This document shows, piece by piece, positions 5,104 through 54,189 of a DNA stretch of 64,000 nt. Each line of letters starts with the position of its first letter. Positions within the stretch are counted from its first letter, which is position 1. The notes under the pieces are model-generated. The model was given only the letters and a program-made list of their open reading frames with translations. It ran no database searches and was not told the origin of the DNA. Source of the stretch: an uncultured Gammaproteobacteria bacterium (GTDB lineage Bacteria; Patescibacteriota; Microgenomatia; CAZETR01; Amesbacteraceae); NCBI GenBank assembly GCA_964518565.1, contig CAZFGX010000001.1, positions 669,404 to 733,403 on the forward strand, in the 5' to 3' direction. The position numbers and the translations under genes are program-made.

Positions 5104-5115
5104 TCCCTACACTAT

Positions 5116-5541
5116 ATGGCAGCCAAAAAAATTAAAGTCATTTTAAAGCTCAATCTCCCAGCTGGTGGCGCAACTCCTGCACCACCTGTCGGTCCAGCTC
5201 TCGGTCAGCACGGTATTCCCATCATGGAATTCGTCAAACAATACAATGACCGCACCAAAGACCAAAAAGGTGACATTATCCCTGCTGTTATCACCGTCTA
5301 CGAAGATCGCAGCTTTACCTTTATCACCAAACTTCCCCCAGTCTCAGCCATGATCAAAAAGGCCTTAAACCTTGAATCTGCTTCCAAAAAACCCGGCCGT
5401 GAATCAGCCGGCAATATCACCAAAGATCAAATCCGCGAAATCGCCCAACGCAAACTCGTAGATCTCAATACTGACAATATCGAATCCGCCGTCAACTCCG
5501 TCGCCGGCACCGCCCGCTCCATGGGTATCAAAGTGATCTAA
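5116..5541 (+). CDS. rplK: 50S ribosomal protein L11
   Basis: [20 protein letters not shown] is the L11 hallmark. Confidence 0.95.
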
Positions 5542-11102: not shown

Positions 11103-11165
11103 ATATCAATATTAATTATATTGACTTTCTATGTGAAGTATGGGCACAATAGATACATAGTTAGA

Positions 11166-11220
11166 ACTTGTAAAAACTGGTAAAAACAGCTTCAAAAAAT
11201 TGTAAAAAGTTGTCAAAACC
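11166..11220 (+). repeat. phased array of T(T)GTAAAAA / TTGTCAAAA motifs upstream of the HTH-TM-Cache gene
   Basis: Copies start at 11168, 11178, 11200 and 11210 (about 10-11 bp phasing). The same motif, reverse-complemented, forms a longer array at 38097-38170. Confidence 0.6.
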
Positions 11221-11234
11221 AGCCCTGCCAAAAA

Positions 11235-13070
11235 ATGCCCAAAACATTCACCGTCAAAGAAGTCGCTGATGCCTTGGGTTTTTCGACCAATACCGTCTAC
11301 AAATACCTAGACGAAGGCAAGATAAAAGCTACCCGTTTAGGGTCAGAAGGTCGCTTCAAAATCCCAGCTTCTGAAGTAGAAAGATTACTAGGAAAACCCA
11401 AGACGGTTCAGGTCATAAATCAACCCGTCCAAACAGTCACAGTCGTAGAAGAAACTGCCGAAAGTTTGATCCGCGAAAAGCCCGCCTCATCCCCAGAACT
11501 TTTTGATTGGCTCCTCTCCCTAACTGCAGTGTTTACAGGCATCTCCCAACTGACCAGTCCAATCAAAAATTTTGCCCTAGCTTCAGATCAATTTCGCACT
11601 CTGTTTTCTATCGCAAATATTGACCTAATTTTGGCAGGTGGATCACTGTTTGCCCTGGACATGTTTTCCCCAAAAAAAACTCGCATATTTTCACTGATCG
11701 CACGCATTCCTCTTGCTGCCACTTTTGGCTATTTAAGCTACCTCCATTTCGTCACCAAAGACATGTGGCAAGCCAGTTATTTTTTTGTACTCAGTCTATT
11801 TACGTTTGCGTCATGTGTATGGCCGGAAAAACACTTTGAAACAAAGTGTTCTCTATTCATGTTTTCTCTTATTAGCATCACGGCAATCGCCTATAGTCGC
11901 AACCCTCAACCGTTTATTTTTTCCGACCCACGCTATGAAATTTCCAACAACCCCAATGGCTTTGTTATGGGAGTGCTTGCCGTCAGCGCCATCATCACCG
12001 CCATTCTGATTTTTGCCAAAAATCGCAGTCGAGTCCTATACCCCATCTTTACTACTTTGACCGGTTGCATCTTTTTGGTTTTGACCATCAGCTATATCGC
12101 TACTGGCGACTTAGCCAAAACCATTATTTGTTTATTCACTGGCTGCTTTGCCCTGATACTTCCACTCACCAACCAAATCGAGTCTTTCTCTCACTATACC
12201 AAACGCCAACTTGCAATTGGATTCATTTGGATCGTTGCTGCCATCGCTCTGGGAGTTGTCGGGGTTCAAGTCACCAAGGCTACCACTGGTTCTCTCGCTA
12301 TCAAAAATGCAAAAGACAAAACCGACTCTACAGCCAAAGTAGCCGACCGCAGTATCTCTGATGCTTCACTGAATGTGATTCGTGCTGCCTCAGATGACCG
12401 ACTCGATTCTCTTCCTATATCCGAAGCCTCTGAAACGACCCTACTGGAAATGTCCAAAAGTATCTATTTCACATCTTCACTTACTCGTCGAGTCTTTTTT
12501 GCCGACCAAGATGGGAACACGTTTGGTGTTTATCCCCCAATCAACTCCAATATCCGTTCAGTAGCTACGCGTGACTTCTTCCAACAAACCAAATCAACTC
12601 GCAAAACCGTAGTCTCAGATGTAATCCAACCCCAAGTAGCCCTTCCAGCCACCGTTTATATCTCCACTCCAATCATTTCTGAAGCCAATGAATTTCGCGG
12701 CACGATCACCATAGCTATTGATCCACAACTACTTCAGGATCGATTGACACTCATGACTCAAGCCGAAAACAGTCGGATTCTCATCACAGATGTCAAAGGT
12801 GATTATTTATTTGGCCAAGAGGTTCTCTCAAAAGAATCAGCCAAAAATCAAAACTCAATTGTATTCGATAATTCAAAAAATCTAGCCGTGCAAACCAAGT
12901 CAAAAGCCGAAGCTCTAGGCTGGAATATTACTCTAGTTCAACCATATGACGAGGTATTCAAAGAATCCACAGCCATCTCATCTTTCATCTTTTTTGTGAG
13001 CGCAGTCCTTGGTATTGGCGCTCTGCTTATAAACACCCACTTACCTCACACACAAAAAGACCATGAATAA
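11235..13070 (+). CDS. membrane protein with an N-terminal excisionase/MerR-type HTH, about nine TM helices, a Cache-like extracytoplasmic domain and a final TM helix
   Basis: FTVKEVADALGFSTNTVYKYLDEGKIKATRLGSEGRFKIPASEVERLL is an HTH_17-like domain. Multiple hydrophobic helices follow. FFADQDGNTFGVYPP...RDFF...VVSDVIQP...TVYISTPII...GTITIAIDPQLL is a Cache-like region. The stop overlaps the giant gene start by 8 nt. Confidence 0.75.
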   Translation: MPKTFTVKEVADALGFSTNTVYKYLDEGKIKATRLGSEGRFKIPASEVERLLGKPKTVQVINQPVQTVTVVEETAESLIREKPASSPELFDWLLSLTAVFTGISQLTSPIKNFALASDQFRTLFSIANIDLILAGGSLFALDMFSPKKTRIFSLIARIPLAATFGYLSYLHFVTKDMWQASYFFVLSLFTFASCVWPEKHFETKCSLFMFSLISITAIAYSRNPQPFIFSDPRYEISNNPNGFVMGVLAVSAIITAILIFAKNRSRVLYPIFTTLTGCIFLVLTISYIATGDLAKTIICLFTGCFALILPLTNQIESFSHYTKRQLAIGFIWIVAAIALGVVGVQVTKATTGSLAIKNAKDKTDSTAKVADRSISDASLNVIRAASDDRLDSLPISEASETTLLEMSKSIYFTSSLTRRVFFADQDGNTFGVYPPINSNIRSVATRDFFQQTKSTRKTVVSDVIQPQVALPATVYISTPIISEANEFRGTITIAIDPQLLQDRLTLMTQAENSRILITDVKGDYLFGQEVLSKESAKNQNSIVFDNSKNLAVQTKSKAEALGWNITLVQPYDEVFKESTAISSFIFFVSAVLGIGALLINTHLPHTQKDHE

Positions 13071-16000
13071 ACGCGGTATTTCACCCATCATCATCTTGCT
13101 CGTCATTGGCCTTGCTACTACTGTCACCTTTGGCACAGCCACGCTTGTTCGCCATTATTCAAACCCGTTCGCCAAAGCCAATCTCCAGCTCAATCTCAAA
13201 AACAGTCCAGACGTAATTGATGCCAGCAAACTAGCTGGAGCTGTACTCCAAAGCCCAGTCGTAGGCATTACCCAATTGGAATCTGGCAAATACACCGCGT
13301 TCCAAATCCAAGATGCCGATATCCAAAATATAGACAACACCCCAACGCTATCTCTCAGTGCCCGACTACTTTCACTTTCCAACGACCCAATATCTCTGAG
13401 TGGCCCAAACAAAATCGACTACATCGAACTCAAAAATCATAAAACTTCCAATGCGAAGGTTGTGATCCCTGGTATCGTCCAAGTCAAAACCAAATCCGGC
13501 GACATCATAAACGTTCTCCTTTCCCAGGCCAAAATTCGCAACGGCCAAATCATCGATGCCTTTTATGGCCAGGTCGTAGATTCAGCCCATTTAATCGCTG
13601 GTGTAGGTGAAATCTCCGGCAATCTTACCTACCCAGCTGTCGAAATCGGTGGCCAACCTGCCAATTCAGGCATTTCGTCACTAGTCAGACAAGCCATGCG
13701 GGTTGTACCTTCACTTTCACTAGATTCCCGACCAATTTCAATCTCCCAAACCCAAGGTACAGTTGTACTGGGTGCAACTACGGACATGCTCCAAAGTCTA
13801 AATCTAGATTTCTCTGCTCCATACGATGCTGTCTTCGATGAAAAGTCTGGCACTTGGACTTTGCCTGGTCAATCTGGCGTATCAATTTCTACCATTGCCA
13901 CAGACCGCCAAGTAGCCAAGGCAATTGAAGACAAAATTAGTTCAGGTGATTTAGTGCTACCTACAGCCACAAATGGCATTACCGAAATCAAATCAGCCAA
14001 CGACAAGCTTACAGTGACCACTAACGAATCGCTAGTTACTCTAAGACTATCACTCGTAAACAGTATCGACTCTGATAGTATTATTGACGGTTCCATCACC
14101 AATTCTGATATCTATTCCGGAGCAAATATTGGCGATAGTAAGCTAGATCAAATCAAATCAGCCAACAAAGTGGCTGGCTCAGCCATCCAACTCTCTACCA
14201 CTGGTGGACTAGAAAATAATTCTGGACTATCCCTACTTACCTCATGTTCAATTAACCAAGTTCTCAAATGGGATGGGTCGGACTGGATTTGTGCTACCCA
14301 ATCTGGTGGTGGTGGCAGTAGTATAGATATTCAAGAAAACGACAGCACAATTACCAGTGCCGCAGCTTTTCTGGATTTTCTGGGTTCAGACTTCACCGTC
14401 ACCAACTCTCCGAGCGGTGAAGCAAATGTAGCTATCGATTACACAAATTCAGCCATCACTCGCTCCAATCAAAATGAAACTATCTCCGGTACTTGGACCT
14501 TTTCTAGCACACCCACCATCACCAATCTTCCCAATTCAGCTTTAGCCAACTCTGGTATTACTGTCACCGCGGGTACAGGCCTATCTGGCGGCGGAGCAGT
14601 CTCCCTCGGCGGTTCAGTCACCTTGTCTTCTACCCTCGGCACAGCCATCGATTCCTCTGAAATCACTAACGACACAATAGTCAATGCCGACATCAATTCA
14701 GCAGCCGCAATAGACTTCACAAAACTCGCCAGTCTGACTGCTGGGTATATCTTGCTCGGAAACTCTTCAAACGTAGTTACCGCCACCGCTCTTAGTGGCG
14801 ATATCACCATAGATAGTTCCGGTGTCACTACCATCGGCGCGGACAAAGTCGCCCTGGGTACCGATACTACCGGCAACTACGTTGCTGGCGCCACCACAAA
14901 TGGCGGTCTGGCACTCACTGGCACCGAAGCTGGCACACTCGGCCTCATCACTTCTTGTAGCGACAACCAAGTGCTCAAATATACAGCGGCCGGCGGTTGG
15001 GCATGTGCCAACGATACCACTGGTGGTGGATCAGGAAATTCATTCGAAACTATTTCCACTGCCTCTGGCACTTCCCCAGTCGCTGATTCCTCTACAGATA
15101 CGTTGTCGCTTACTGCTGGTTCAGGAATCACAATTGTAGGCGATGCCTCAAACGACAGTATCGCTATTGCGGCAACGCTAGGCAACACTATCGATTCTTC
15201 AGAAATCACCAATGACACCATCGTCAATGCCGATATCAACTCTGCTGCCGCCATCGACTTCTCAAAGTTAGGTGCACTCACAGCTGGGAACATTCTTTTG
15301 GGTAACAGTTCAAACGTCGCCACCTCCACTGCCATGTCAGGTGATATTACGATCGACAGTTCTGGCGTCACCACCATCGGCGCAGACAAAGTGGCTCTGG
15401 CCACCGACACTACTGGCAACTATGTCGCCACTGTCACTGGCAATTCTCAAATCTCAGTGTCTGGATCTGGTTCAGAAAATGCTGGCGTTTCTCTTTCCAT
15501 CGCCGCTGATAGTATTGGTGATTCACAGCTCGCCTTCAATACCGGCCAAAACCTGACCACTTCCTCCACGCCAACATTTAGCGCGCTAACACTAAACGGC
15601 AATCTGACTCTAGCCAATGCAGAAACCTTATCCAATGGTACCGACGGTCAAATTACTTTTGGTCGAAATGATGCTGGCACAGTCACACTGACTGCCGCTG
15701 ACAATGACTCCACCGCAGCACTGACTATCTTGCCCGGCGGCGCCGCAGGATTGACTCTCGGCGGATCGTCTACCACGGCTATCACCATAACCACCGATGG
15801 CACTGGTGACAGTGAAGTCGTTCTACCTGCAAATTCCGTAGGTAATTCAGAATTGGTAAATTCTAGTATTACCATCAATTCCGCTGGCATCCTCTCTGGT
15901 GGCGCCTCAGTATCTCTCGGTGGAAATATCACCCTCACCGCCACAGAAGCAGACACGCTCAACACCGTTGCGGGGCGTGGTGCATCTACTGCCACTGCAT

Positions 16001-22000: not shown

Positions 22001-25000
22001 CCGACGCCCAACTAGCTTTCAACACAGGTCAACACTTAACCACTACATCCACACCTACTTTTGGTTCACTCACCCTCAATGGATCCCTCACTTTGGCCAA
22101 CAGCGAAACGATTGCAAACGGCACAGACGGCCAAATCCTCTTCTCTCGCAACGACGCCGGCACAGTCACGATCAATGCTGCCGATAACGATGCCAATGCA
22201 GACCTCGTAATCAGAGCTGGTGGCACAGGTGCATTAACCTTTGGCAATGCAAGCAACACGTCCATCACCCTTACCACTGATAGTACTGGTGACGCGGAAG
22301 TCGTCCTACCAGCAAGCTCAGTTGGCAATTCTGAACTAGTAAATTCCTCAATTACCATCAATTCATCAGGCATCCTAACTGGTGGCGCTTCAGTATCTCT
22401 TGGTGGAAATATTACCCTAACCGCCACTGAAGCAGACACTCTAAACTCAGTCGCTGGTCGTGGCGCATCTACTGCCACTGCCCTGACACTTTCTTCCACT
22501 TCAAATGCCATTACTGCCGGTACGATCACAGTTAACGCCGATGCTATTACAGACTTCACCGGCACTGGTATCACGATTTCCGGTGGTGCACTCCAAACCA
22601 CTCTCGGTACTGCGATCGATTCTTCAGAAATTACTGACAATACTATCACTGCCTCAGATCTCAATGCCACATTGACCTTTGCAGACAGTGATCTAATCGA
22701 CCTCTCTGCCATAAACAACTCCTCAACAACTGAAGGCTTACTTCTTCCTCAAGCCACCGCTTGTACTTCAGCTACTGCCAACGGCCAAATCTGCTGGGAC
22801 AACGATTCCTTCACACTCAGTATCGGCAATGGCACAACTACCACATCCATAGGCAACCCCTTCGGTGCCAGTATCGATTCTTCAGAAATCACCAATGACA
22901 CCATCGTTAATGCCGACATCAACTCCGCTGCCGCCATCGACTTTTCCAAGCTGGCCGCTCTTTCCTCTGGAAACATCTTGGTCGGTTCTGTAGGCAACGT
23001 TGCCACATCAGTTACCATGTCTGGCGACATCACTATCGACAACACTGGCGCCACTACTATCGGAGCAGATAAAGTCGCCTTAACTACCGACACCACTGGT
23101 AACTATGTCACTTCCGTCACCAACGGCACAGGTATTACAGGTGGCAATGGTGGATCTGAAGGTGCAGCCTTAACCTTGGCTGTAGATCAAACCACCGCTT
23201 TCACTTGGACTGGTCTCCAAACCCACACCAACACCATCACCGACGATGGTAGTCAATCTATATTCAACCTCACTCTAGGCAACGATGCTAACACCGACAC
23301 TATTTCTGCCATCAAAGTCGCAGCCACTTCTGCGACCACTGGCGATGCCGACACAGTCTACGGTCTAGATATCGCCAACTTATCTTCAGCTGATGGCACT
23401 GTTGCAGAAAATGCAATTCACATCGGCACAGGCTGGGACAACGTCTTCGACCTCAACGGTACTCTTATTTCCAGCTCAGAACTTACTTTATTAGATGGAG
23501 TTTCTGGCACTCTCGTCACCACCACCACCAACCCCACTTCAGCCGACATATCTGGTTCATTCTCAGCTGGATTCACAGTCGCAGCTAATGCAGTAGCCTT
23601 AGCTACCGACACTACTGGCAATTATGTCGCAACCGTCGCCGGTGATTCCCAAATCTCAGTTTCAGGCTCTGGTTCAGAAAACGCTGGAGTTTCACTCTCA
23701 ATTGCCGCCGACAGTATTGGCGATTCCCAACTCGCTTTCAATACCGGTCAAAATCTAACCACTACTTCTACTCCCACCTTTGGCTCACTCACTCTCAATG
23801 GCTCTCTCACCCTCGCCAACTCAGAAACTATTGCCAATGGTACAGATGGTCAAATTCTTTTCTCTCGCAACGATGCTGGCACTGTCACCATAAACGCCGC
23901 AGACGATAATGCCAACGCAGATCTGGTTGTCAGAGCCGGCGGCACTGGCGCTCTTACACTCGGAAACTCTAGCAATACTGCCATTACACTAACCACTGAC
24001 AGTACTGGTGATGGCGAAATCGTTCTACCTGCCAACTCTATCGGCAACTCAGAACTCGTAAACTCTGCCATCACCATCAATTCCGCTGGCATTCTCTCCG
24101 GAGGCGCTTCCGTTTCACTAGGCGGCAATGTCACTCTAACCGCCACTGAAGCAGACACGCTCAACACAGTTGCAGGTCGCGGCGCCTCCACTGCTACTGC
24201 CTTGACACTCTCCTCCACATCAAACGCCATTACCGCCGGAACCATCACCGTCAATTCAGACGGAATCACCGACTTTACTGGTACTGGCTTACAAATGAAC
24301 AGTGGATCCTTAGAAGCCACCCTGGGTACCAGTATCGTTTCCGGCGAAATCACCGACGACACTATTACTGCCTCAGACCTAAACGCTACTCTCACATTTG
24401 CTGACAGTGACATGATTGACCTCTCCAGTATCAACGGTTCATCTACTACTGAAGGGCTTAAACTCCCACAAAATACCTCCTGTGCTTCATCTACTGCCAA
24501 TGGCCAGATTTGTTGGGACAACGACGGTTTTGTTCTCTACATCGGTAACGGCACTACGACCACGGCCATTACTGGTGGTGGCGGAAATTCATTTGAAACT
24601 ATCACTACCACTTCTGGCTCTTCCCCAGTCGCCGATTCTTCCACCGACACACTCACACTTACCGCCGGAACCGGTATGACCGTTACCGGTGATTCCTCTA
24701 CTGACACCATTACTCTCGCCACTACTCTCGGCACTGCTATCGATAGTTCAGAAATCACTAACGATTCGATCGTTAATGCTGATATTAATTCGGCTGCCGC
24801 CATCGACTTCTCCAAGCTCGCTACCTTGTCTTCAGGCAACATTCTCGTTGGATCAGTCGGCAATGTCGCCACATCAGTCGCGATGTCTGGCGACGTCACT
24901 ATCGACAACACAGGTGCCACCACCATCGGTGCAGACAAAGTTGCCTTAACGACAGACACCACTGGCAACTATGTCCAAAGTATCACCAACGGTACAGGTA

Positions 25001-28000
25001 TCTCCGGCGGCAATGGTGGTGGCGAAGGCTCAGCTCTTACTCTTGCAGTGGATCAAACCACGGCCTTCACTTGGACAGGTCTACAAACTCATACCAACAC
25101 TATTACCGATGATGGGGCCCAATCTACCTACAACCTCACCCTCGGCAATGATGCCAATACAGATACGGTTTCAGGTGTAGCTATCAATGTCACCTCCACA
25201 GCTACTGGTGACGCCGACACACTCTACGGTCTAAACATTGCCAATATCACTGCCCAAGCCGTGGTCACTGAAACCGCTATCAACATCGGCACAGGTTGGG
25301 AACAGGCTATCAACGCCGGCGGTACGTTGATCTCCCTCTCAGAACTCCAATTAATCGATGGTGGTATAGCTCTATCTGAACTCACTGATTCTGGTACTCT
25401 GACAGCTGGCACAGTCGACATCAACGGTGGCGCAATTGACGGCGTAACTATTGGTGGCTCTTCAGCAGGTGCCGGCACATTCACCACCCTAACAGCTACC
25501 GGCGATGTCACCATGAACGATGCTGGCGCAGACAATATCTTAATCGGTGCCGCCGCAGACACACTGACTCTGACATCAAATTCCCTCTCGCTCACCGATG
25601 ACAACTGGAGTATTTCCACCTCCGGCGCTCTTACCACTTCCGGAGCCATCAATGCCAACGGCGGCATCACCACATCCACTTCAAACACAGCTCTCGCTTT
25701 CACTGTAAACGGATCTGGAGACTTCACCTTTACTGCCGACAGTGACAGCCAAGTCCAAATCAGTCTCGACGACAGCAGTACCAACACCGGTCTCGAACTT
25801 CTGCGCCTGACCCGCACTACTTCCAGTACAGCAGCTGACAGTATCGGTGGCTACATAAGCTTCTATATCGAAAACGATACTAGTACTGCCGAAGCTGCCC
25901 GCATCTTAGCCAACCTCCGCGATGCCAATGTCGCCACAACAGTAGGTACAGATATAACCATGTACGTAGCACGCGACGGATCCACCGGTGAATTGATCGA
26001 CGGTATGACAGTCTATGTGGACGCTGCCAACAAATGGGTCTGTGGTAACGCCAACAAACTCGGCAACGATGGCTACGACTGTTTCGGTTTCCAAATCGGT
26101 ACATCCAACATCATCAACTTTAGCTTTGATGGGAGTAATAGATTCAATGTGGATTACAGTTCAGGTAGTACTCAGCTAGCTCTTTATTCTGTAAACAGTG
26201 GCGACGATCTCTTGGTTAAAACTCTCGGCGACCAGGCCATCAGCTTTGACCAAAACAACGACGGCAACAACATGGTTATTGATACTGATGGCCAAGTAGG
26301 TATCGGTACTGATACTCCAGCCAATGCCCTAGAAGTCTTGTCTACCACCACTCCCCAATTTAGAGTTTCCTACGACACCAGCAACTACACCACTTTCGCC
26401 GTTTCCTCCACCGGCGTACTCACCATCGACTACACTGGTACAGCTGGCGGAATTACTCTAGCCGATTTCACCGGCGGTGGCTCTGGCTGTTCAGCCCTGG
26501 AGACCAACAGTTCAGGCGTCCTTGCCTGTGGCACAGACGATACTGGTGGATCCTCCACTATGCAAGGTGTATATGACAACGATGTCAACGGCAGCGATGT
26601 TACTATTGCCATGAATACTACAGACGGCTCAATCATTTTCACAGAAGCTGCTGGTACTAATCACCAAATCACAACCACTGCCGCCCCAACGCTTGACCAG
26701 CTGGCTCTTACAAATACTGGATTTGGCACCACCACTGATGGTGTAGATGGTCTATCAATTGTCTTCGAACAAGCCGACGATGCCGACGCCACAGATACAA
26801 ACGCCGGCCTAAATGTTTCCGTCTCTGGAGCCTCTGGAGACCTAGGAGATATCCTTTCAGGAATCAGTATTAACACAACTGCTCAAACAGCCAACAATCG
26901 CGAAATTGGTCTCACTATCGGTACAGGATTCGATGAAGACATTCGCTTTGCTTCCGCTTCTGCAATAATTCGTATGCAAGACGGTGGCACACTCAGCTTT
27001 ATGGATGGCTCATATGGCCAAGGTGCTACAAAGGATCAACCAAATGCCCGCGTAATTGAGTACTTTAGCACCGCAAACTATGGCGTCTTTGAAGCTGGTG
27101 GGTTTGTAAATATTGATGGTAGCTACTATCAAGATAACTTTAGTATCCCCATGACAGCAGTAACAGCGGATGTGACTAGTCGCACAAACCGATTTGGTGA
27201 CCATGGAAACTGGTCGTTTGACGAAGCCGGTACCGGCGGTGGCTCAACCGCGACCAACTCAACAAAGTATGGATGTACTCTATCTCAAGGTGGTTCTGGT
27301 GCAGGAGCTGGTACAAACACATCCTTTGGTCGTTTAGAGTTCTCTCCAGATTTGGGAACACACACACATACTGCCGCAGATTCTGCCTGTGTCGCCCATC
27401 TTGGTATAGGCACCGGCACAAACACTGCTGGTGTATTAAACGCTGCCTACAAATATGTTCAATATTTCAAAGTTGGTTTTTCATCAGGTTTCACCAACAA
27501 CAATTCAGCCAATCAAGCGTTTGTAGGTGCACACAATTACACAGAAGCCTGGGGACAGAATTGGAGCTCAATTGCAGCAACTCATGGCTTTATTGGGTTT
27601 GCGAATCTTATCTCCACAACCACAGCCACAGATGCACAAGGCGGCACCCAATGGAACGGATTTGCTCGCGTAGGCAACGCTATTAGCTCGGTCGCCTGTG
27701 GAACAACCGGAAATATTAGTACAGCTTCAAATGCCTGGGCACTTATGCGTATCGAAGCACGTGCCACAAATGACGTGCACTTCTTTATTGATAGTGACGT
27801 AAGCAATGGTATAGCACTAACAGAGTGTGGCGCTGGTGTTTCTTCAAACATCTCCACTCGCAACTTAAACCCAGCCATGAATGTTGTCCATCAACAAAAC
27901 CTTTCCTCTGCCGGTAATTCTTGGACCATGTATGTAGACTTATATGCCCACGTTCAAGACGATCCAAAACCAGAAAATGGTCCAATAGCCTTCAGTGACA

Positions 28001-29262
28001 CAGTAGACACCAACTCACCACTGGATCCCATTTCTGGCGCGGACGTAGCCGAATACTACCAAATGCCAAACGGCTATGATTCTATAAACATTGGTGACAT
28101 CGTCTCCTTGGGCTCTGAGCCAGGCAAGGCTGAAGTTGCAACAAAACCTCAAGACCGAAAAATGCTAGGTGTAGTTTCCGAAAAGCCTGGACTCACACTC
28201 GGCCAATCTGAAGGCCAAAACATGATGCCTATTGCTCTCACCGGCCGCGTACCGGTTCGTATTAGCTCTAAAAATGGCACCATTAAAATCGGCGACGCAA
28301 TCACCTCTTCAGATATACCAGGTGTAGGTATCAAGGCTACCCAACCAGGAAAAATTCTCGGAACTGCCATGGAAAACTTCGACTCAAATGACGAAGGCCG
28401 CATCATGGTAAACATCAATGTCGGATATTACCTAGGTGAAGAATCTGAACAACCCCTACTCGTCCAAAAAAATGAAATAAACATCACACCTTCTATTGAA
28501 TCTGACACATCAATGGCCACAGATAGCGCTGGATTAACAGCTGGGTCAGTCGGAGAATTTATCATTAACAAACCCTCAGTGTTCCAACAACTCTCTCAAT
28601 TCATGAATGACATAATAGTGAACGGCAAAGCGACGTTTAACAATTCAGTAGCCTTCTTGGGCAACACACTATTTAAAGGTAAAGCAACCTTTGAAAAAAC
28701 TGTAGAGTTTAATGAAGACGCCGCTGGTTATGCTGTAATCAAAGCCGGCCATCGTGCAGTGAATATTACCTATGCTACTGAGTATTCAAATAATCCATTA
28801 GTAAACACCTCTCTCGTCGTCACCAAAATTACTCCAGAAATCTACACTGATCGTGTATCTCGCGGCATCTGTAATGAGACGGCCGGCATGCAAGCCTGCC
28901 AAGACAATATGGTAAATGAGGTACTTGGAAACGATGTAAAATTTGCCATCGTCGACAGCAGTACCCAAGGATTCATGATTCTTCTCAACAAGCCAACTCA
29001 AGTAGACATGACCTTCTCATGGACAGCTACTGCAGTAACAAAAACAAAGGTAAGCACAAGTACAACCGATCCAGCTCTAGAATCAGCATTTAAAAATATC
29101 AGCGAGTCATCGTCTGACTCAGCTAGTTTAATCCAGGAGATAAACGAACAAATAGCTACAACATCAGCAATTCTAGGAAGTCAAATCAGTATAAATGACC
29201 AATTGTTAAACGAAAATTCAGCTACTTCTTCAGCCTCACCCTCAGCATCGACATCCCCATAG
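13063..29262 (+). CDS. giant (5399 aa) secreted/surface-anchored repeat protein, fibre/adhesin-like
   Basis: Single uninterrupted ORF with an N-terminal signal anchor. Thr/Ser/Gly/Asn-rich beta-type repeats and a non-repetitive C-terminal 1300 aa containing VGIGTDTPANALEV and a beta-rich terminal domain. All minus-strand ORFs in this interval are shadows. Confidence 0.85.
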   Translation: MNKRGISPIIILLVIGLATTVTFGTATLVRHYSNPFAKANLQLNLKNSPDVIDASKLAGAVLQSPVVGITQLESGKYTAFQIQDADIQNIDNTPTLSLSARLLSLSNDPISLSGPNKIDYIELKNHKTSNAKVVIPGIVQVKTKSGDIINVLLSQAKIRNGQIIDAFYGQVVDSAHLIAGVGEISGNLTYPAVEIGGQPANSGISSLVRQAMRVVPSLSLDSRPISISQTQGTVVLGATTDMLQSLNLDFSAPYDAVFDEKSGTWTLPGQSGVSISTIATDRQVAKAIEDKISSGDLVLPTATNGITEIKSANDKLTVTTNESLVTLRLSLVNSIDSDSIIDGSITNSDIYSGANIGDSKLDQIKSANKVAGSAIQLSTTGGLENNSGLSLLTSCSINQVLKWDGSDWICATQSGGGGSSIDIQENDSTITSAAAFLDFLGSDFTVTNSPSGEANVAIDYTNSAITRSNQNETISGTWTFSSTPTITNLPNSALANSGITVTAGTGLSGGGAVSLGGSVTLSSTLGTAIDSSEITNDTIVNADINSAAAIDFTKLASLTAGYILLGNSSNVVTATALSGDITIDSSGVTTIGADKVALGTDTTGNYVAGATTNGGLALTGTEAGTLGLITSCSDNQVLKYTAAGGWACANDTTGGGSGNSFETISTASGTSPVADSSTDTLSLTAGSGITIVGDASNDSIAIAATLGNTIDSSEITNDTIVNADINSAAAIDFSKLGALTAGNILLGNSSNVATSTAMSGDITIDSSGVTTIGADKVALATDTTGNYVATVTGNSQISVSGSGSENAGVSLSIAADSIGDSQLAFNTGQNLTTSSTPTFSALTLNGNLTLANAETLSNGTDGQITFGRNDAGTVTLTAADNDSTAALTILPGGAAGLTLGGSSTTAITITTDGTGDSEVVLPANSVGNSELVNSSITINSAGILSGGASVSLGGNITLTATEADTLNTVAGRGASTATALTLSSTSNAITAGTLTINGDTFTDLTGTGLTISGGALQTTLGTAIDSSEITDDTITASDLAATLTFADGDLLDLSNINNSSTSEGLKLPQATACTSATANGQICWDNDTFVLYVGNGTTASSISNPFGVSIDSSEITNDSIVNADINSSAAIDFSKLATLTAGNVLLGNSSNVATSTALSGDVTVDSSGVTTIGADKVALATDTTGNYVATVTGNSQISVSGSGSENAGVSLSIAADSIGDSQLAFNTGQNLTTASSPSFASQTLSNTTNQLVLGTTNTTTISSTAPSTSRTYTIPDFGSNDSFVGLAATQTLTNKTISGSSNTLSNIGNSSLTNSSITINTSGILTGGASVSLGGNITLTATEADTLATVTGRGASTSTTLSLAAFTASDTFTQTYTPAGTVASPRGVILTPTFGIDATDQTLAALYINPNTNSNSDSGDSLNGINIAAITASSANETAILIGSAGGGSTGWNNILAVNSSVIINGSGVLQSAALSGTYSNALTLSSTSNAITAGTVTVNSDAITDFTGTGLQMNSGSLETTLGTDITNSEINASAAIDFSKLATLTAGNVLLGNASNIATSTTLSGDITVDNSGVTTIGADKVALGTDTTGNYVSSATTNKGLTLSGTEGGSLGLQNCADNEILKYSTGTSTWSCASDATGGTINSFETITTTSGTSPVADSSTDTLTLTAGTGITVTGDSSTDTITLAATLGTAIDSSEITNDTIVNADINSAAAIDFSKLAALTAGNILLGNGSNVATSTTLSGDITIDSSGVTTIGANTVALATDTTGNYVATITGNSQISVSGSGSENAGVSLSIAADSIGDSQLAFDTGQNLTSTSTPTFGALTLNGSLTLANSETIANSTNSQFTFGRNDAGTVTLTAADNDATAALSILPGGAAALTLGGSSTTAVTLTTDNTGDAEVVLPANSIGNSELVNSSITINSAGILTGGASVSLGGNITLTATEADTLDAVAGRGASTSTALTLSSTSNAITAGTLTISGDAFTDLTGTGLTISGGALQTTLGTAIDSSEITDNTITASDLNATLTFADSDLLDLSSINNSSASEGLLLPQATACTSATANGQICWDNDTFVLYVGNGTTATSISNPFGASIDSSEITNDTIVNADINSAAAIDFSKLATLTAGNVLLGNASNIATSTTLSGDVTVDSSGVTTIGADKVALTTDTTGNYVASVTNGNGITGGNGGSEGAALTLAVDQTYAFTWTGLQTHTNTITDDGSQSIFNLTLGNDANTDTVSAIKVAATSAATGDADTIYGLDIANLASANATVAEQAIHIGSGWDNIFDINGTLISATEIGLLDGLSGTILTSGNYSSTLDSVYVNVGESPAAGDITGSFSGGLTIGSDSVALATDTTGNYVATVTGNSQISVSGSGSENAGVSLSVAADSIGDSQLAFDTGQNLTSTSTPTFGSLTLNGSLTLANSETIANSTNSQFTFGRNDAGTVTLTAADNDATAALSILPGGAAAFTLGGASTTAITLTTDSTGDSEVVLPANSIGNSELVNSSITINSAGILTGGASVSLGGNITLTATEADTLNSVAGRGASTATALTLSSTSNAITAGTLTINSDAFTDLTGTGLTISGGALQTTLGTAIDSSEITDDTITASDLNATLTFADGDLIDLSSINNSSTTEGLKLPQATACTSATANGQICWDNDTFVLYVGNGTTATSISNPFGASIDSSEITNDTIVNADINSAAAIDFSKLAALSSGNILVGSVGNVATSVAMSGDVTIDNAGATTIGADKVALTTDTTGNYVASVTNGTGITGGNGGSEGAALTLAVDQSTAFTWTGLQTHTNTITDDGSQSTFNLTLGNDANTDTISAIKVAATSAATGDIDTVYGLDIANLASANGTVLEQAIHIGTGWDNIFDLNGTLISATELGLLDGLSGTLLTSANYTSTLDSVYVNVGESPAAGDIAGSFSGGLTVGADSVALATDTTGNYVATITGDSQVSVSGSGSENAGVSISIAANSIADAQLAFNTGQHLTTTSTPTFGSLTLNGSLTLANSETIANGTDGQILFSRNDAGTVTINAADNDANADLVIRAGGTGALTFGNASNTSITLTTDSTGDAEVVLPASSVGNSELVNSSITINSSGILTGGASVSLGGNITLTATEADTLNSVAGRGASTATALTLSSTSNAITAGTITVNADAITDFTGTGITISGGALQTTLGTAIDSSEITDNTITASDLNATLTFADSDLIDLSAINNSSTTEGLLLPQATACTSATANGQICWDNDSFTLSIGNGTTTTSIGNPFGASIDSSEITNDTIVNADINSAAAIDFSKLAALSSGNILVGSVGNVATSVTMSGDITIDNTGATTIGADKVALTTDTTGNYVTSVTNGTGITGGNGGSEGAALTLAVDQTTAFTWTGLQTHTNTITDDGSQSIFNLTLGNDANTDTISAIKVAATSATTGDADTVYGLDIANLSSADGTVAENAIHIGTGWDNVFDLNGTLISSSELTLLDGVSGTLVTTTTNPTSADISGSFSAGFTVAANAVALATDTTGNYVATVAGDSQISVSGSGSENAGVSLSIAADSIGDSQLAFNTGQNLTTTSTPTFGSLTLNGSLTLANSETIANGTDGQILFSRNDAGTVTINAADDNANADLVVRAGGTGALTLGNSSNTAITLTTDSTGDGEIVLPANSIGNSELVNSAITINSAGILSGGASVSLGGNVTLTATEADTLNTVAGRGASTATALTLSSTSNAITAGTITVNSDGITDFTGTGLQMNSGSLEATLGTSIVSGEITDDTITASDLNATLTFADSDMIDLSSINGSSTTEGLKLPQNTSCASSTANGQICWDNDGFVLYIGNGTTTTAITGGGGNSFETITTTSGSSPVADSSTDTLTLTAGTGMTVTGDSSTDTITLATTLGTAIDSSEITNDSIVNADINSAAAIDFSKLATLSSGNILVGSVGNVATSVAMSGDVTIDNTGATTIGADKVALTTDTTGNYVQSITNGTGISGGNGGGEGSALTLAVDQTTAFTWTGLQTHTNTITDDGAQSTYNLTLGNDANTDTVSGVAINVTSTATGDADTLYGLNIANITAQAVVTETAINIGTGWEQAINAGGTLISLSELQLIDGGIALSELTDSGTLTAGTVDINGGAIDGVTIGGSSAGAGTFTTLTATGDVTMNDAGADNILIGAAADTLTLTSNSLSLTDDNWSISTSGALTTSGAINANGGITTSTSNTALAFTVNGSGDFTFTADSDSQVQISLDDSSTNTGLELLRLTRTTSSTAADSIGGYISFYIENDTSTAEAARILANLRDANVATTVGTDITMYVARDGSTGELIDGMTVYVDAANKWVCGNANKLGNDGYDCFGFQIGTSNIINFSFDGSNRFNVDYSSGSTQLALYSVNSGDDLLVKTLGDQAISFDQNNDGNNMVIDTDGQVGIGTDTPANALEVLSTTTPQFRVSYDTSNYTTFAVSSTGVLTIDYTGTAGGITLADFTGGGSGCSALETNSSGVLACGTDDTGGSSTMQGVYDNDVNGSDVTIAMNTTDGSIIFTEAAGTNHQITTTAAPTLDQLALTNTGFGTTTDGVDGLSIVFEQADDADATDTNAGLNVSVSGASGDLGDILSGISINTTAQTANNREIGLTIGTGFDEDIRFASASAIIRMQDGGTLSFMDGSYGQGATKDQPNARVIEYFSTANYGVFEAGGFVNIDGSYYQDNFSIPMTAVTADVTSRTNRFGDHGNWSFDEAGTGGGSTATNSTKYGCTLSQGGSGAGAGTNTSFGRLEFSPDLGTHTHTAADSACVAHLGIGTGTNTAGVLNAAYKYVQYFKVGFSSGFTNNNSANQAFVGAHNYTEAWGQNWSSIAATHGFIGFANLISTTTATDAQGGTQWNGFARVGNAISSVACGTTGNISTASNAWALMRIEARATNDVHFFIDSDVSNGIALTECGAGVSSNISTRNLNPAMNVVHQQNLSSAGNSWTMYVDLYAHVQDDPKPENGPIAFSDTVDTNSPLDPISGADVAEYYQMPNGYDSINIGDIVSLGSEPGKAEVATKPQDRKMLGVVSEKPGLTLGQSEGQNMMPIALTGRVPVRISSKNGTIKIGDAITSSDIPGVGIKATQPGKILGTAMENFDSNDEGRIMVNINVGYYLGEESEQPLLVQKNEINITPSIESDTSMATDSAGLTAGSVGEFIINKPSVFQQLSQFMNDIIVNGKATFNNSVAFLGNTLFKGKATFEKTVEFNEDAAGYAVIKAGHRAVNITYATEYSNNPLVNTSLVVTKITPEIYTDRVSRGICNETAGMQACQDNMVNEVLGNDVKFAIVDSSTQGFMILLNKPTQVDMTFSWTATAVTKTKVSTSTTDPALESAFKNISESSSDSASLIQEINEQIATTSAILGSQISINDQLLNENSATSSASPSASTSP
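14600..25200 (+). repeat. intragenic tandem repeats of about 1.2-1.8 kb (6-7 units, roughly 85-90% nt identity)
   Basis: The motif coding for IDSSEITNDTIVNADINSAAAIDF recurs near 14641, 15181, 16381, 18141, 19341, 21111, 22861 and 24731. TGTTGGGACAACGAC recurs at 16311, 19271, 21031, 22791 and 24521. Confidence 0.8.
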
Positions 29263-34469: not shown

Positions 34470-34471
34470 AA

Positions 34472-35401: not shown

Positions 35402-35426
35402 GAATATATGCAGTATACTCCAACCC

Positions 35427-37537: not shown

Positions 37538-38117
37538 AAACCAGCCTGGTAATAGGAAACCAGGTCGGATTTTTCTCCACCAAAGCTAACCCCACACTCC
37601 TGGCTTGATTCACAATCTTGGGCATATCCACTCTTTGATGAGGACCTTCAGGCATTTTCCAGCCCATTTTTTCCCAGACTATCAGTAACGGCTCCCAAAA
37701 CGGACCCACAAATGTCACTATCAGCCGACCATCAGCTTCTAAATGCGATTTAATCCAATCCAAGTCCCCTCTCAGATCCATTGTGTGCTCTACAACATCT
37801 GCCATAATCACTGTATTAAATTTGTCTTTTATCTCTGATTTTTTAGCCGTAAATCTGAAGTTTGGGAATTTTCTTGCCGCAAGTTTTACCATTTCACTAC
37901 TAATATCAAAACCTGTTCCCATTATCGGGTCTAAATAAGCCAATATCTGGCCAGTTCCGCATCCATAATCTAATACGTTTTTTTTATTACCAGCTTTTGA
38001 ACGAATTATCCTTTTAAGTACACTATAATAAATGCCATTTTTTCGCTTAAAACTGTCATACAAATGTGCGATTTCATCAAAATGTTGTTCTACGTCGTTT
38101 TTACAAGTTTTTACCAT
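37524..38117 (-). CDS. class I SAM-dependent methyltransferase
   Basis: VLDYGCGTGQILAYL (motif I) and ADVVEH (post-I acidic region). Confidence 0.8.
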   Translation of the reverse strand: MVKTCKNDVEQHFDEIAHLYDSFKRKNGIYYSVLKRIIRSKAGNKKNVLDYGCGTGQILAYLDPIMGTGFDISSEMVKLAARKFPNFRFTAKKSEIKDKFNTVIMADVVEHTMDLRGDLDWIKSHLEADGRLIVTFVGPFWEPLLIVWEKMGWKMPEGPHQRVDMPKIVNQARSVGLALVEKNPTWFPITRLVFKRI

Positions 38118-38170
38118 ATTTTAGCCTTGTTTTTACAAGTTTTTACAACTTATTACAAGTGTTTACAATC
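38097..38170. repeat. phased array (6-7 copies, about 10.5 bp period) of TTTTTACAAG, the reverse complement of CTTGTAAAAA
   Basis: Copies start at 38098, 38108, 38130, 38140, 38151 and 38162. The array overlaps the methyltransferase start codon and matches the array at 11166-11220. Confidence 0.65.
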
Positions 38171-53377: not shown

Positions 53378-54160
<783 letters not shown>

Positions 54161-54189
54161 TCATGCTAAAAGCAATCTCAGGCTGTGTC

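What the first reader, a model, noticed from the sequence alone, without database searches (positions are those of the whole stretch)
11235..29262. Two-gene module: HTH-polytopic-Cache membrane protein translationally coupled to a 5399-aa repeat protein
The upstream gene (11235-13070) has the same kind of N-terminal HTH as giant gene 2, but here it is fused to about nine TM helices plus an extracytoplasmic Cache-like ligand-binding domain. Its stop overlaps the start of the 16.2-kb giant gene by 8 nt. Both HTH proteins begin MPK/MPN with the shared context CTGCCAAAAA(A)TGCCCAA. So the two loci look like split and fused versions of one sensor-regulator plus giant fibre system. A one-component membrane regulator with a Cache sensor and MerR-like HTH, hard-wired to a giant adhesin, is unusual.
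Basis: partly seen in the sequence, partly recalled or inferred. Interest (0 to 1): 0.8.

Follow-up and report, generated by a model that had tools for sequence, protein, structure and literature searches.

The report
Membrane sensor-regulator paired with giant surface protein
In an ultra-small (CPR/Microgenomates-type) bacterium, a membrane protein with an inside DNA-binding head and an outside ligand-sensing domain is always encoded just ahead of a giant surface protein and behind conserved 10-bp DNA repeats, which suggests a one-protein switch for the cell's largest surface structure.

Summary
ORF 11235-13070 (611 aa) is HTH_17, a disordered linker, 9 TM helices, an extracytoplasmic dCache domain and a 10th TM helix. 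Its stop overlaps by 8 nt (ATGAATAA) the start of a 5399-aa, N-terminally anchored repeat protein (13063-29262).

The pair is a conserved module. In all 18 distinct loci examined (CPR/Patescibacteria, mainly Microgenomates), the homologue is followed on the same strand by a giant ORF. These giants share a colinear N-terminal ~500 aa, while the flanking genes differ between loci.

I also found a conserved cis-element. Between a sigma70-like promoter and the ATG there are 2-6 helically phased TTGTAAAAAC direct repeats. The HTH is 75% identical across a family that is otherwise about 27-31% identical. An independent metagenome scan for the repeat 20-mer recovered this HTH subtype just downstream in 11 of 60 loci, fused to four different membrane architectures.

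Best model: a membrane-integral, ToxR-like-in-logic one-component autoregulator. BldC/Xis-type HTH heads bind the repeats, and an extracellular ligand gates expression of the giant fibre. DNA binding, ligand and regulatory sign are inferred.

The "split versus fused versions" link to giant gene 2 is only weakly supported. This is a new variant of a known kind, uncharacterised in the literature I could search.

The parts
11121..11150 (+). Sigma70-like promoter candidate: -35 TTGACT, 18-nt spacer, -10 CACAAT
   Evidence: Consensus scan. An equivalent TTGACA...TATATA(GT) element sits upstream of the repeats in orthologous loci. The transcription start was not determined.
11168..11219 (+). Four TTGTAAAAAC-type direct repeats (11168, 11178, 11200, 11210) in a pair, 12-nt gap, pair layout. 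Candidate operator for the HTH.
   Evidence: 21 matches with <=1 mismatch in the window versus 8.4+-2.9 expected. Present as 2-6 copies in all 18 orthologous leaders, spaced 10 nt or 20-24 nt. TTGT[AG]A density is 21.7/kb in leaders versus 0.45/kb elsewhere.
11225..11237 (+). Conserved start context CTGCCAAAAA-ATG. There is no Shine-Dalgarno sequence.
   Evidence: CTGCC-N1-5-ATG is seen in most orthologous leaders.
11235..13070 (+). Gene for the 611-aa HTH_17 / 9-TM / dCache / TM10 protein
11247..11390 (+). Excisionase/BldC-type winged HTH (residues 5-52), cytoplasmic. Followed by a disordered linker (residues 55-80, pLDDT<50).
   Evidence: PF12728 40.3 bits and TIGR01764 39.2 bits. 75% mean pairwise identity in the family versus 27-31% for the rest of the protein. 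Linker.
11499..12275 (+). Nine-helix transmembrane domain (residues 89-347), found only in this family
12276..12959 (+). Extracytoplasmic dCache domain (residues ~348-575): long stalk helix plus two PAS-like modules
12960..13040 (+). Tenth TM helix (residues 576-602), followed by a 9-residue cytoplasmic tail. No C-terminal output domain.
13063..13070 (+). 8-nt overlap ATGAATAA between the two genes
   Evidence: Overlap or a gap of <=1 nt in 10 of 16 orthologous junctions.
13063..29262 (+). Gene for the 5399-aa giant repeat protein
   Evidence: No Pfam, NCBIfam, PHROG or PDB sequence match.
13063..14562 (+). Giant protein N-terminus. A basic segment, the G-I-S-P motif and a hydrophobic anchor (residues 1-30) are followed by the juxtamembrane region conserved among orthologous giants (to about residue 500).
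   Evidence: Alignment of 16 orthologues. Colinear BLASTP matches at 25-33% identity, E down to 1e-75.
14560..25362 (+). Repeat body: T/S/A/G-rich modules in super-repeats of about 587 aa, with paired cysteines
   Evidence: Motif positions (ICWDND at residues 2069, 2656, 3243), composition and Cys pairs.
28000..29112 (+). C-terminal non-repeat region (residues ~4980-5350). Shared with only one orthologue; the tips differ between lineages.
38097..38168 (-). Second array of 6 TTGTAAAAAC repeats with the same pair-gap-pair layout. It overlaps the start of a Methyltransf_23 gene (37524-38117, - strand) next to GT2 and epimerase genes. Possible second target of the same HTH.

Best explanation
This is a membrane-integral one-component regulator that controls its own operon, which includes a giant surface protein.

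Proposed mechanism: transcription starts at a sigma70-like promoter and runs through an ~80-nt leader carrying four phased TTGTAAAAAC repeats. The 611-aa protein inserts with its excisionase/BldC-type HTH in the cytoplasm on a ~30-residue flexible tether. A 9-helix bundle sits in the membrane, a dCache ligand-binding domain lies outside, and a 10th helix returns to the cytoplasm. Several HTH heads bind the direct repeats side by side on one face of the DNA, in the manner of BldC and Xis. The sites lie downstream of the -10 element, and in several orthologues also inside the promoter spacer, so occupancy most likely represses transcription (negative autoregulation). Ligand binding to the dCache domain moves TM9/TM10, changes the packing or oligomeric state of the membrane domain, and so changes HTH occupancy. 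This sets production of the regulator and of the downstream, frequently overlapping gene for a 5399-aa N-anchored repeat fibre, presumably an attachment structure of this episymbiotic-type bacterium.

Shown: domain identities, topology, gene-pair conservation, repeat conservation, and the association between the HTH subtype and the repeats.

Inferred: actual DNA binding, the sign of regulation, the ligand (perhaps a carboxylate, via R446), the signal path, co-transcription, and the adhesive role of the giant.
For: No kinase, receiver, MCP or other output domain is present. The C-terminal tail is 9 residues, so the HTH is the only candidate output.

The gene pair was found in 18 of 18 distinct loci with different flanking genes.

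The HTH is 75% identical across the family, and its predicted recognition helix FSTNTVYKY is invariant or nearly so. The rest of the protein is 27-31% identical. This implies a conserved target.

The matching conserved target candidate is the TTGTAAAAAC repeats: 2-6 copies in every leader, spaced 10 nt or 20-24 nt, with a 48-fold density enrichment.

Where a gap separates the two genes, it also carries repeat-like copies (L001, L005, L012; weaker in L018), in inverted orientation in L012.

Independent test: an exact 20-mer scan of metagenomes gave 60 loci. In 11 of them the same HTH subtype starts 20-410 nt downstream on the same strand. It is fused to four different membrane-anchored architectures, including one full HTH-9TM-dCache plus giant pair.

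Precedent: BldC, a MerR-like wHTH, binds 9-bp direct repeats as head-to-tail multimers (PMC5859096). ToxR binds in tandem and tethers DNA to the membrane (PMC10629549, title and abstract only).

The leader RNA is unstructured (z -0.76) and has no Rfam match. The KinD residue R131 aligns with R446, which is Arg in 35 of 48 family members.
Against: No binding, expression or ligand data exist, and the organism is uncultured.

The window protein's dCache_1 score (41.6 bits) is just below Pfam's 45-bit cutoff.

Operators downstream of the promoter fit repression, yet a constitutively autorepressed giant gene is odd. The sign of regulation is a guess.

The role of a 9-helix membrane domain is unexplained. 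ToxR-type regulators need only one TM helix.

The HTH and the upstream repeats could travel together by descent rather than because they interact. However, nucleotide conservation at this evolutionary depth still implies selection.

Most of the 60 20-mer hits have no such HTH nearby, so the repeat is not exclusive to this family.

The frequent start-stop overlap and the conserved juxtamembrane domain of the giant fit a physical partnership as well as they fit regulation.
Confidence: 0.55

Rival explanations
1. The 611-aa protein is mainly a structural or assembly partner of the giant protein. Its membrane or dCache part would dock the giant's conserved N-terminal juxtamembrane domain as a base or anchor complex. 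The HTH would tether the operon DNA to the membrane so that the 16-kb gene is transcribed, translated and inserted at one site (transertion). Regulation by ligand would be secondary or absent.
For: The part of the giant that is conserved across orthologues is the membrane-proximal N-terminal ~500 aa. The distal tips vary between lineages. The pair is strictly adjacent, and start-stop overlap or a gap of <=1 nt occurs in 10 of 16 junctions. This is compatible with coupled, co-localised synthesis. The 9-TM domain is found only in this family, so only next to such giants. The same HTH subtype is fused directly to other membrane-anchored ectodomain proteins, each behind the same repeats. Transertion driven by a membrane-bound regulator has a precedent in VtrA/VtrC (PMC9977878, abstract only).
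Confidence: 0.2
2. The TTGTAAAAAC repeats are not an operator for this HTH. They could be a general leader or promoter element, such as an A-rich translation enhancer or S1-binding leader in an organism that largely lacks Shine-Dalgarno sequences. They could also be phased A-tract curvature, or sites for another protein. The HTH would then act elsewhere or on another partner.
For: Genes in this window mostly lack SD sequences, and many look leaderless. The repeats are A-rich, lie in the presumably transcribed leader, and abut the start codon. Arrays also precede unrelated genes: the methyltransferase at 38117 in the window, and a glycogen-synthase-like ORF (L041) and a small zinc-ribbon-like ORF (L044) in the metagenome scan (my reading of the N-terminal sequences, not scanned).
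Against: There is a specific association with one HTH subtype in four different architectures. Inverted-orientation copies occur in the L012 intergenic gap, and repeat-like copies in either orientation occur inside promoter spacers by eye. An RNA element could not work in both orientations. Only two arrays occur among about 36 genes in the window. The 10/20-24-nt phasing points to one DNA face. There is no RNA structure signal.
Confidence: 0.12
3. The adjacency is incidental: two unrelated genes that happen to be neighbours, with the HTH-Cache protein regulating distant targets.
For: Nothing beyond the lack of experimental data. The giant has no recognisable domain that would tie it to the sensor.
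Against: The pair was found in 18 of 18 distinct loci, at 21-60% protein identity to the window protein and in non-syntenic surroundings. Junctions frequently overlap.
Confidence: 0.03

Closest known systems
ToxR / CadC / VtrA-type membrane-bound one-component regulators
   Same: One polypeptide joins a cytoplasmic N-terminal DNA-binding domain, a membrane anchor and an extracytoplasmic sensor, with no phosphorelay. ToxR binds multiple tandem sites and tethers DNA to the membrane (PMC10629549, abstract). VtrA/VtrC is linked to transertion of a large envelope machine (PMC9977878, abstract).
   Different: Those proteins use an OmpR-type wHTH and a single TM helix, and their periplasmic domains are not Cache domains. 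Here the HTH is excisionase/BldC-type (PF12728), there are 10 TM helices, the sensor is a dCache domain, and the sites lie downstream of the promoter.
BldC and excisionase (Xis) family wHTH proteins
   Same: The HTH is in the same family (PF12728, TIGR01764). The family profile also hits the PDB chain 4j2n 'Gp37' at E 1.5e-4. BldC binds variable numbers of 9-bp direct repeats head-to-tail as cooperative multimers (PMC5859096), which matches the 2-6 direct repeats seen here.
   Different: BldC and Xis are small soluble proteins of about 55-70 aa with no sensor. The NCBIfam BldC model scores only 13.5 bits against a 77-bit cutoff. Here the domain is tethered to a polytopic sensor, the repeat unit is 10 bp, and the sequence differs (TTGTAAAAAC versus AATTNNNNC).
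dCache_1 sensor domains of KinD, PctA/B/C and Mlp24/37 (histidine kinases and chemoreceptors)
   Different: Those proteins signal through a C-terminal cytoplasmic kinase or MCP domain after TM2. Here nothing follows TM10. The only output candidate is N-terminal, separated from the sensor by nine helices. One database source names a family member a methyl-accepting chemotaxis transducer, but no MCP signal domain is present.
ArnR/ArnR1 of Sulfolobus (membrane-bound one-component regulators of the archaellum)
   Same: An N-terminal HTH protein anchored in the membrane controls a large surface filament (PMC6396743, title and abstract).
   Different: Different HTH class, two C-terminal TM helices, no Cache ectodomain, and an archaeal host.
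LapD/LapG control of the giant adhesin LapA
   Same: A membrane receptor with a Cache/PAS-like periplasmic domain is dedicated to a giant repeat adhesin. (This comparison rests on my own knowledge.)
   Different: LapD works post-translationally: c-di-GMP is sensed inside and a protease is sequestered outside. It has HAMP-GGDEF-EAL domains. None of these are present here, and a DNA-binding domain is present instead.

Membership tests
HTH_17 / excisionase-family DNA-binding domain (PF12728, TIGR01764) | Profile score above the curated cutoff | tested here: met
   PF12728: 40.3 bits against a cutoff of 27. TIGR01764: 39.2 bits against 28.8. The AF2 model gives a helix-helix-strand-strand-helix wHTH at residues 4-52 with pLDDT 85-93.
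BldC subfamily (NF033787) | Score above the 77-bit cutoff; small stand-alone wHTH protein | tested here: not met
   13.5 bits, and the domain is fused to a 550-aa membrane protein. It may work like BldC, but it is not a member.
BldC subfamily (NF033787) | Binds tandem direct repeats as head-to-tail multimers | not testable with these tools
   Suitable direct repeats are present and conserved. Binding itself needs EMSA or footprinting.
Classical MerR regulators | HTH plus coiled-coil dimerisation helix plus effector domain, with a palindromic operator in a 19-bp promoter spacer | tested here: not met
   PF00376 scores 16.9 bits against 28.2, and MerR_1 scores 14.2 against 21.6. The HTH is followed by a disordered linker, not a coiled coil. 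The candidate sites are direct repeats, not a palindrome.
dCache_1 (PF02743) | Profile score above the Pfam gathering cutoff | tested here: not met
   The window protein scores 41.6 bits against 45, with E 1.4e-10. PF02743 is recorded for 49 of the 50 family homologues P0001-P0050. The family profile hits the KinD dCache domain at 1.3e-12.
dCache_1 (PF02743) | Fold: long N-terminal helix plus two PAS-like modules, extracytoplasmic, flanked by TM helices | tested here: met
dCache_1 (PF02743) | Functional ligand pocket | tested here: inconclusive
   R446 aligns with KinD R131 and with the Arg of the Mlp37 RPWY motif. It is Arg in 35 of 48 members. Other pocket positions could not be mapped reliably.
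ToxR-like transmembrane transcription regulators | OmpR/PhoB-type wHTH at the N-terminus | tested here: not met
   No Trans_reg_C hit; the HTH is PF12728.
ToxR-like transmembrane transcription regulators | Single TM helix linking the HTH to a periplasmic sensor | tested here: not met
   Nine TM helices precede the ectodomain and one follows it.
ToxR-like transmembrane transcription regulators | Input and output in one membrane protein, with no phosphotransfer domains | tested here: met
   Only HTH and Cache-type domains were detected. It works like this family but is not a member.
Methyl-accepting chemotaxis proteins (name given to P0040 by a source) | Cytoplasmic MCPsignal domain (PF00015) after TM2 | tested here: not met
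   No such hit. The cytoplasmic C-terminal tail is 9 residues.
Fibrillar / giant repeat adhesins | Long stalk of tandem repeats, with a secretion signal and a cell anchor | tested here: met
   587-aa super-repeats, T/S/G/A-rich composition, paired Cys and an N-terminal hydrophobic anchor.
Fibrillar / giant repeat adhesins | Recognisable adhesive or stalk domain families | tested here: not met
   No Pfam, NCBIfam, PHROG or PDB sequence match anywhere in the 5399 aa. The adhesin role is an inference.
Type IV pilin-like (class III) signal peptides | G-F-T-L-I-E type N-terminal motif recognised by prepilin peptidase | tested here: inconclusive
   The giants' N-termini share basic-G-[ILFMV]-[TSI]-P followed by a hydrophobic stretch. 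Glu5 is absent, and model hits are insignificant (E 0.012-0.2).

The most novel reading that the evidence does not exclude
CPR bacteria may have a class of membrane-anchored HTH proteins that bind phased repeats in the leader of their own gene and so pin that locus to the membrane. The HTH subtype is STNTVYKY. It is sometimes fused to a polytopic dCache sensor and sometimes fused directly to surface proteins. Under this reading the sensor-gated DNA tether makes a 16-kb giant-fibre gene be transcribed, translated and exported at one membrane site, in complex with the fibre's conserved base domain. That would be a dedicated, ligand-controlled transertion device rather than a conventional repressor.
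Probability: 0.15. Interest if true: 0.8.

Novelty: new variant of a known kind. Interest (0 to 1): 0.62.

Why it matters
CPR/Patescibacteria have about 1-Mb genomes, few recognisable regulators, and a lifestyle thought to depend on attaching to host cells. How they control their giant surface proteins is unknown.

This module supplies a concrete and testable handle. It includes a conserved sensor with a ligand-binding pocket, a DNA-binding head with a candidate 10-bp operator, and a defined target gene that is the largest in the window.

The parts are small enough for direct tests: EMSA or footprinting with a 60-aa domain and 70 bp of DNA, and ligand screening with a ~230-aa ectodomain. If binding is confirmed, TTGTAAAAAC arrays could be used to read out a regulon in uncultured genomes.

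It would also add a new architecture (excisionase-type HTH, polytopic domain, dCache) to the short list of membrane-bound one-component regulators.

Tried and rejected
1. Homology searches with the giant's N-terminal 330 aa, and with a 14-sequence alignment of it, returned nothing, not even the protein itself. This is a word-index limitation. I established orthology from fetched loci instead.

The single-sequence model was unusable (pLDDT 35), so no fold search was run on it.

3. The AFDB Foldseek library was unavailable.

5. An RNA element in the leader is not supported: no Rfam hit and fold z-score -0.76.

6. A pilin-like class III signal on the giant gave only insignificant hits. I kept it as a lead.

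7. Pfam, NCBIfam, PHROG and PDB sequence scans of all parts of the giant found no matches.

8. Seven literature searches found no paper on this family, motif or module. One search located the BldC precedent.

9. Mapping the amino-acid-sensor motif (PctA numbering) onto the family was ambiguous beyond the Arg.
Full report
**1. What is in the sequence**

The window contains ORF 11235-13070 (+, 611 aa) and ORF 13063-29262 (+, 5399 aa). The junction reads gaccATGAATAAacg, so the giant's ATG lies inside the last codons of the upstream gene and the overlap is 8 nt. Upstream, on the opposite strand, are DprA (10311-11102) and a ComM/Mg-chelatase-like gene (8769-10286). The context is a bacterial chromosome. 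An identical copy of the 611-aa protein is on record on a contig of 1,001,365 bp. All relatives come from CPR/Patescibacteria, mostly Microgenomates such as Amesbacteria and Woesebacteria.

**2. The 611-aa protein**

- Profile searches give HTH_17 at residues 5-52 (40.3 bits, cutoff 27) and the excisionase-family domain TIGR01764 (39.2 bits, cutoff 28.8).
- dCache_1 matches residues 414-540 with E 1.4e-10 but 41.6 bits, slightly under Pfam's 45-bit cutoff.
- An AF2 model built on 48 homologues is confident (mean pLDDT 84, pTM 0.71).
- The model shows a winged HTH (residues 4-52), a disordered linker (55-80), and nine TM helices (89-347).
- The last of these TM helices continues into a long stalk helix.
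- Two alpha/beta PAS-like modules follow (to about residue 570), then a tenth TM helix (576-602) and a 9-residue tail.
- Family-averaged hydropathy and the positive-inside distribution agree with the HTH inside and the Cache domain outside.
- The family profile hits KinD at 1.3e-12 and Mlp37/Mlp24 at 1e-10.
- Window R446 (TRDFF) aligns with KinD R131, the position that is Ala in the 4jgq chain, and with the Arg of the Mlp37 RPWY motif. It is Arg in 35 of 48 family members.
- A full phmmer pass with the TM domain over 1.84 billion representatives found only 18 proteins. Full-length ones have the same architecture, and the shorter ones look like fragments.
- No kinase, receiver, MCP, GGDEF or other output domain exists, so the HTH is the only candidate output.

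**3. The giant protein**

- It starts with MNKRGISPIIILLVIGLATTVTFG, a basic segment followed by a long hydrophobic stretch. This is a signal-anchor or a signal peptide.
- It is rich in T, S, A, G and N (15, 12, 11, 11 and 8%).
- It carries 26 cysteines, nearly all in close pairs.
- It is built from modules arranged in super-repeats of about 587 aa (ICWDND at residues 2069, 2656 and 3243).
- No part matches Pfam, NCBIfam, PHROGs or PDB sequences.

It is therefore a giant, probably extracellular, N-terminally anchored repeat protein. 'Adhesin' or 'fibre' is an inference from size, composition and repeats.

**4. The pair is a conserved module**

The 611-aa protein has 50 homologous clusters of about 600-660 aa in a 5.8-billion-protein collection, and 49 of them carry both HTH_17 and dCache_1. 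I examined every homologue for which flanking DNA could be fetched. These were L001, L002, L003, L005, L006 and L008. They also included L010-L013 and L015-L019, L029 and L050. With the window, that makes 18 distinct loci.

- In all of them the next gene on the same strand is very long (1636 to more than 3800 aa) or runs off the contig end.
- The downstream proteins share a colinear N-terminal region. It has a basic segment, G-[ILFMV]-[TSI]-P, and a hydrophobic anchor.
- A juxtamembrane domain follows, with motifs such as YLDxxK, VGTVxLPDGSYSAY, FYLKDGTKT and KILxGxVxNGxLxGxFxGQTY.
- BLASTP gives 25-33% identity over the first 500-900 residues, with E down to 1e-75. The C-terminal tips differ between lineages.
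- Flanking genes differ from locus to locus (DprA, LysM-M23 peptidase, prenyltransferase, ABC transporter, LepA and others). The pair is therefore kept together by selection, not by general synteny.
- The junction overlaps or leaves at most 1 nt in 10 of 16 loci: -8 in the window and L029, -4 in three loci, and -1, 0, +1 and -17 in others.

**5.

In the window, a promoter-like site (-35 TTGACT at 11121, -10 CACAAT ending at 11150) lies upstream of the ATG. Between it and the ATG are four copies of TTGTAAAAAC at 11168, 11178, 11200 and 11210, arranged as pair, 12-nt gap, pair. The window has 21 matches with at most one mismatch, against 8.4 +- 2.9 expected. No shuffle reached 21.

The same element precedes the orthologous gene in every locus.

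- There are 2-6 copies per leader, spaced 10 nt (19 cases) or 20-24 nt (18 cases), which places them on one face of the helix. The consensus is AC-TTGTAAAAAC.
- The core TTGT[AG]A occurs at 21.7 per kb in the 130 nt upstream of the gene, versus 0.45 per kb in the rest of about 307 kb of the same loci.
- Where a gap separates the sensor gene from the giant gene, it also carries repeat-like copies (L001, L005, L012; weaker in L018). In L012 they are in inverted orientation.
- By eye, several promoters carry a repeat-like copy inside the -35/-10 spacer, in either orientation.
- The leader RNA is not unusually structured (z -0.76), and Rfam finds nothing.

**6. Link between the repeats and the HTH**

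Across the family the HTH (residues 1-53) is 75% identical on average. The linker is 14% identical, the TM domain 27% and the Cache domain 31%. The stretch F16-S-T-N-T-V-Y-K-Y-L25, together with R34, G39-R-F41 and E47, is invariant or nearly so. An unusually conserved DNA-binding head next to an unusually conserved repeat suggests that one recognises the other.

As an independent test, I scanned the metagenome collection for the exact 20-mer TTGTAAAAACTTGTAAAAAC. It returned 60 loci. In 11 of them an ORF beginning 20-410 nt downstream on the same strand starts with this HTH subtype (family HMM E 3e-8 to 1e-22). These ORFs have four different architectures:

- one full HTH-9TM-dCache gene followed by a giant with the conserved N-terminal domain (L050);
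- a 1003-aa HTH-TM-ectodomain protein (L034, L037, L057, L066);
- a 318-aa HTH-TM protein whose C-terminus looks SH3-like by eye (not scanned) (L078);
- proteins of about 155 aa with an HTH, a Pro-rich linker and a hydrophobic C-terminal part (L031, L061).

The HTH subtype and the repeats therefore travel together whatever is fused behind the HTH. All of these fusion partners appear membrane-anchored, judged from their sequences.

The precedent is BldC, a MerR-like wHTH that binds variable numbers of 9-bp direct repeats as head-to-tail cooperative multimers (PMC5859096). The family profile also weakly hits the PDB chain 4j2n, 'Gp37' (E 1.5e-4).

**7. Most likely mechanism**

I read the module as a membrane-integral one-component autoregulator. 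HTH heads on flexible 30-residue tethers occupy the phased repeats in the promoter-proximal leader. The dCache ectodomain binds an extracellular small molecule. Movement of TM9/TM10 changes the packing or oligomerisation of the membrane domain and hence cooperative HTH occupancy. The operon output, meaning the regulator plus the giant protein, follows.

The sites lie downstream of the -10 element, so repression is the simplest sign. DNA binding, sign, ligand, signal path, co-transcription and the function of the giant are all inferences.

The main rival is that the protein is a physical partner or base for the giant, and that the HTH mainly tethers the locus to the membrane (transertion). The evidence does not exclude this, and the two readings can coexist. 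The giant's conserved part is its membrane-proximal base, and the 9-TM domain occurs only next to such giants. A second rival treats the repeats as a general leader or translation element. It is disfavoured by the specific HTH association, the inverted copies, and the rarity of arrays (two among about 36 genes in the window).

**8. Giant gene 2 and the 'split versus fused' idea**

Giant gene 2 (54527 to beyond the window end, at least 3158 aa) begins with a bona fide MerR-type HTH (PF00376, 51.9 bits) and then has a single TM helix and repeats. The idea is only loosely supported.

- Its HTH is only 28% identical to that of the 611-aa protein (E 2e-4). The family HMM does not detect it even at E<=10.
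- It has no polytopic or Cache part.
- It has no TTGTAAAAAC array. A single degenerate copy lies at 54418, and there are no hits with at most one mismatch in 54100-54526.
- It has no counterpart of the giant-1 N-terminal domain.
- It shares some repeat modules (70% identity over 133 aa) and the CTGCC-A5-TG-CCCAA start context.

The broader theme is real: a cytoplasmic MerR-superfamily HTH at the N-terminus of membrane-anchored surface proteins.

**9. Comparison with known systems, and novelty**

In logic the protein resembles ToxR, CadC and VtrA, which are membrane-bound one-component regulators. It fails their defining features: it lacks an OmpR-type HTH and it does not have a single TM helix. 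Its HTH belongs to the excisionase/BldC superfamily but not to the BldC subfamily (13.5 bits against a 77-bit cutoff). Its sensor is a dCache domain like those of KinD or PctA, but with no C-terminal transmitter. One source's name, 'methyl-accepting chemotaxis transducer', is wrong because there is no MCP domain.

Database records call the family 'hypothetical' or 'excisionase family DNA binding protein'. Seven literature searches found no description of the family, the repeat or the gene pair. I rate it a new variant of a known kind. The sensor-HTH principle is known. The new features are the architecture, the dedicated pairing with giant genes across a CPR lineage, and the conserved tandem operator candidate.

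**10. Verdict**

Interest is 0.62: a real, conserved, uncharacterised and experimentally tractable regulatory module for the largest surface protein of an uncultured ultra-small bacterium. Its operating principle has precedents, and every functional step is still inferred.

Noticed in passing
window 38097-38168 (- strand): A second array of six TTGTAAAAAC repeats with the same pair-gap-pair layout. It overlaps the start of a Methyltransf_23 gene (37524-38117, - strand), which lies beside GT2 glycosyltransferase and epimerase genes. The divergent gene 38219-38962 encodes a protein with an N-terminal hydrophobic anchor. This may be a second target of the same HTH.
   Followed up: partly
window 54440-54526: The promoter region of giant gene 2 has TTGACA overlapping a short palindrome, TTGAC-acagga-GTCAA, followed by TAATCT. 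A palindrome in or near the spacer is the classical position of a MerR operator, which hints that this giant's own N-terminal MerR HTH could act on its own promoter. The arms are only 5 nt, so the statistics are weak.
   Followed up: no
window 54190-54350: Two copies of an imperfect direct repeat of about 22 nt (ATGTCCAAG-T/A-TTTTTTCC(C)GAAAA) lie about 130 nt apart, upstream of giant gene 2.
   Followed up: no
whole window: GC skew is strongly and uniformly negative (-0.07 to -0.31 in every 2-kb bin), whatever the gene orientation. G+C is higher (0.49-0.51) inside the giant genes than in the flanks (0.36-0.46).
   Followed up: no
window gene starts (e.g. 5116, 7120, 8053, 39018, 45384): Many genes have a TATAAT-like box only 4-11 nt before the ATG and no Shine-Dalgarno sequence. 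This suggests widespread leaderless or near-leaderless mRNAs. The HTH-sensor gene is an exception, with a leader of about 80 nt.
   Followed up: no
L020 10001-14538 (Candidatus Amesbacteria MAG): A relative with the same DprA neighbour has only a 77-aa HTH ORF (75% identical over residues 1-55). It is followed by a giant ORF that lacks its N-terminal anchor and the first part of the conserved domain. This is either a natural deletion or decay of the sensor, or an assembly artefact.
   Followed up: partly
L034, L057, L066, L037, L078, L031, L061: The same HTH subtype, behind the same repeats, is fused to other membrane-anchored proteins. These are a 1003-aa protein with an ectodomain and a long C-terminal hydrophobic/amphipathic repeat region, a 318-aa protein whose C-terminus looks SH3-like by eye, and ~155-aa proteins with a Pro-rich linker and a hydrophobic C-terminal part.
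   Followed up: partly
L062 and L086 (metagenome); L040, L051, L071, L081: The 20-mer also occurs as long arrays (8 tandem copies visible, L062/L086) in an unknown context. In a group of contigs it occurs as a pair followed by AAAGCAGC, upstream of small HTH-like and ParA-like ORFs. By eye this looks like a plasmid iteron arrangement; organism not determined. These hits are unrelated to the CPR family.
   Followed up: no
N-termini of the giant proteins (window 13063-13150; L001-L019): A conserved basic-G-[ILFMV]-[TSI]-P motif lies directly before the hydrophobic anchor. From memory it resembles archaeal-type class III (pilin-like) signal peptides. Model hits to pseudopilin N-termini are insignificant (E 0.012-0.2).
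   Followed up: partly
window 33528-35428 (- strand): Two tandem paralogous Beta-lactamase2-family genes (313 and 318 aa) lie downstream of the giant gene, next to a weakly TPR-matching ORF and ORFs without family matches.
   Followed up: no
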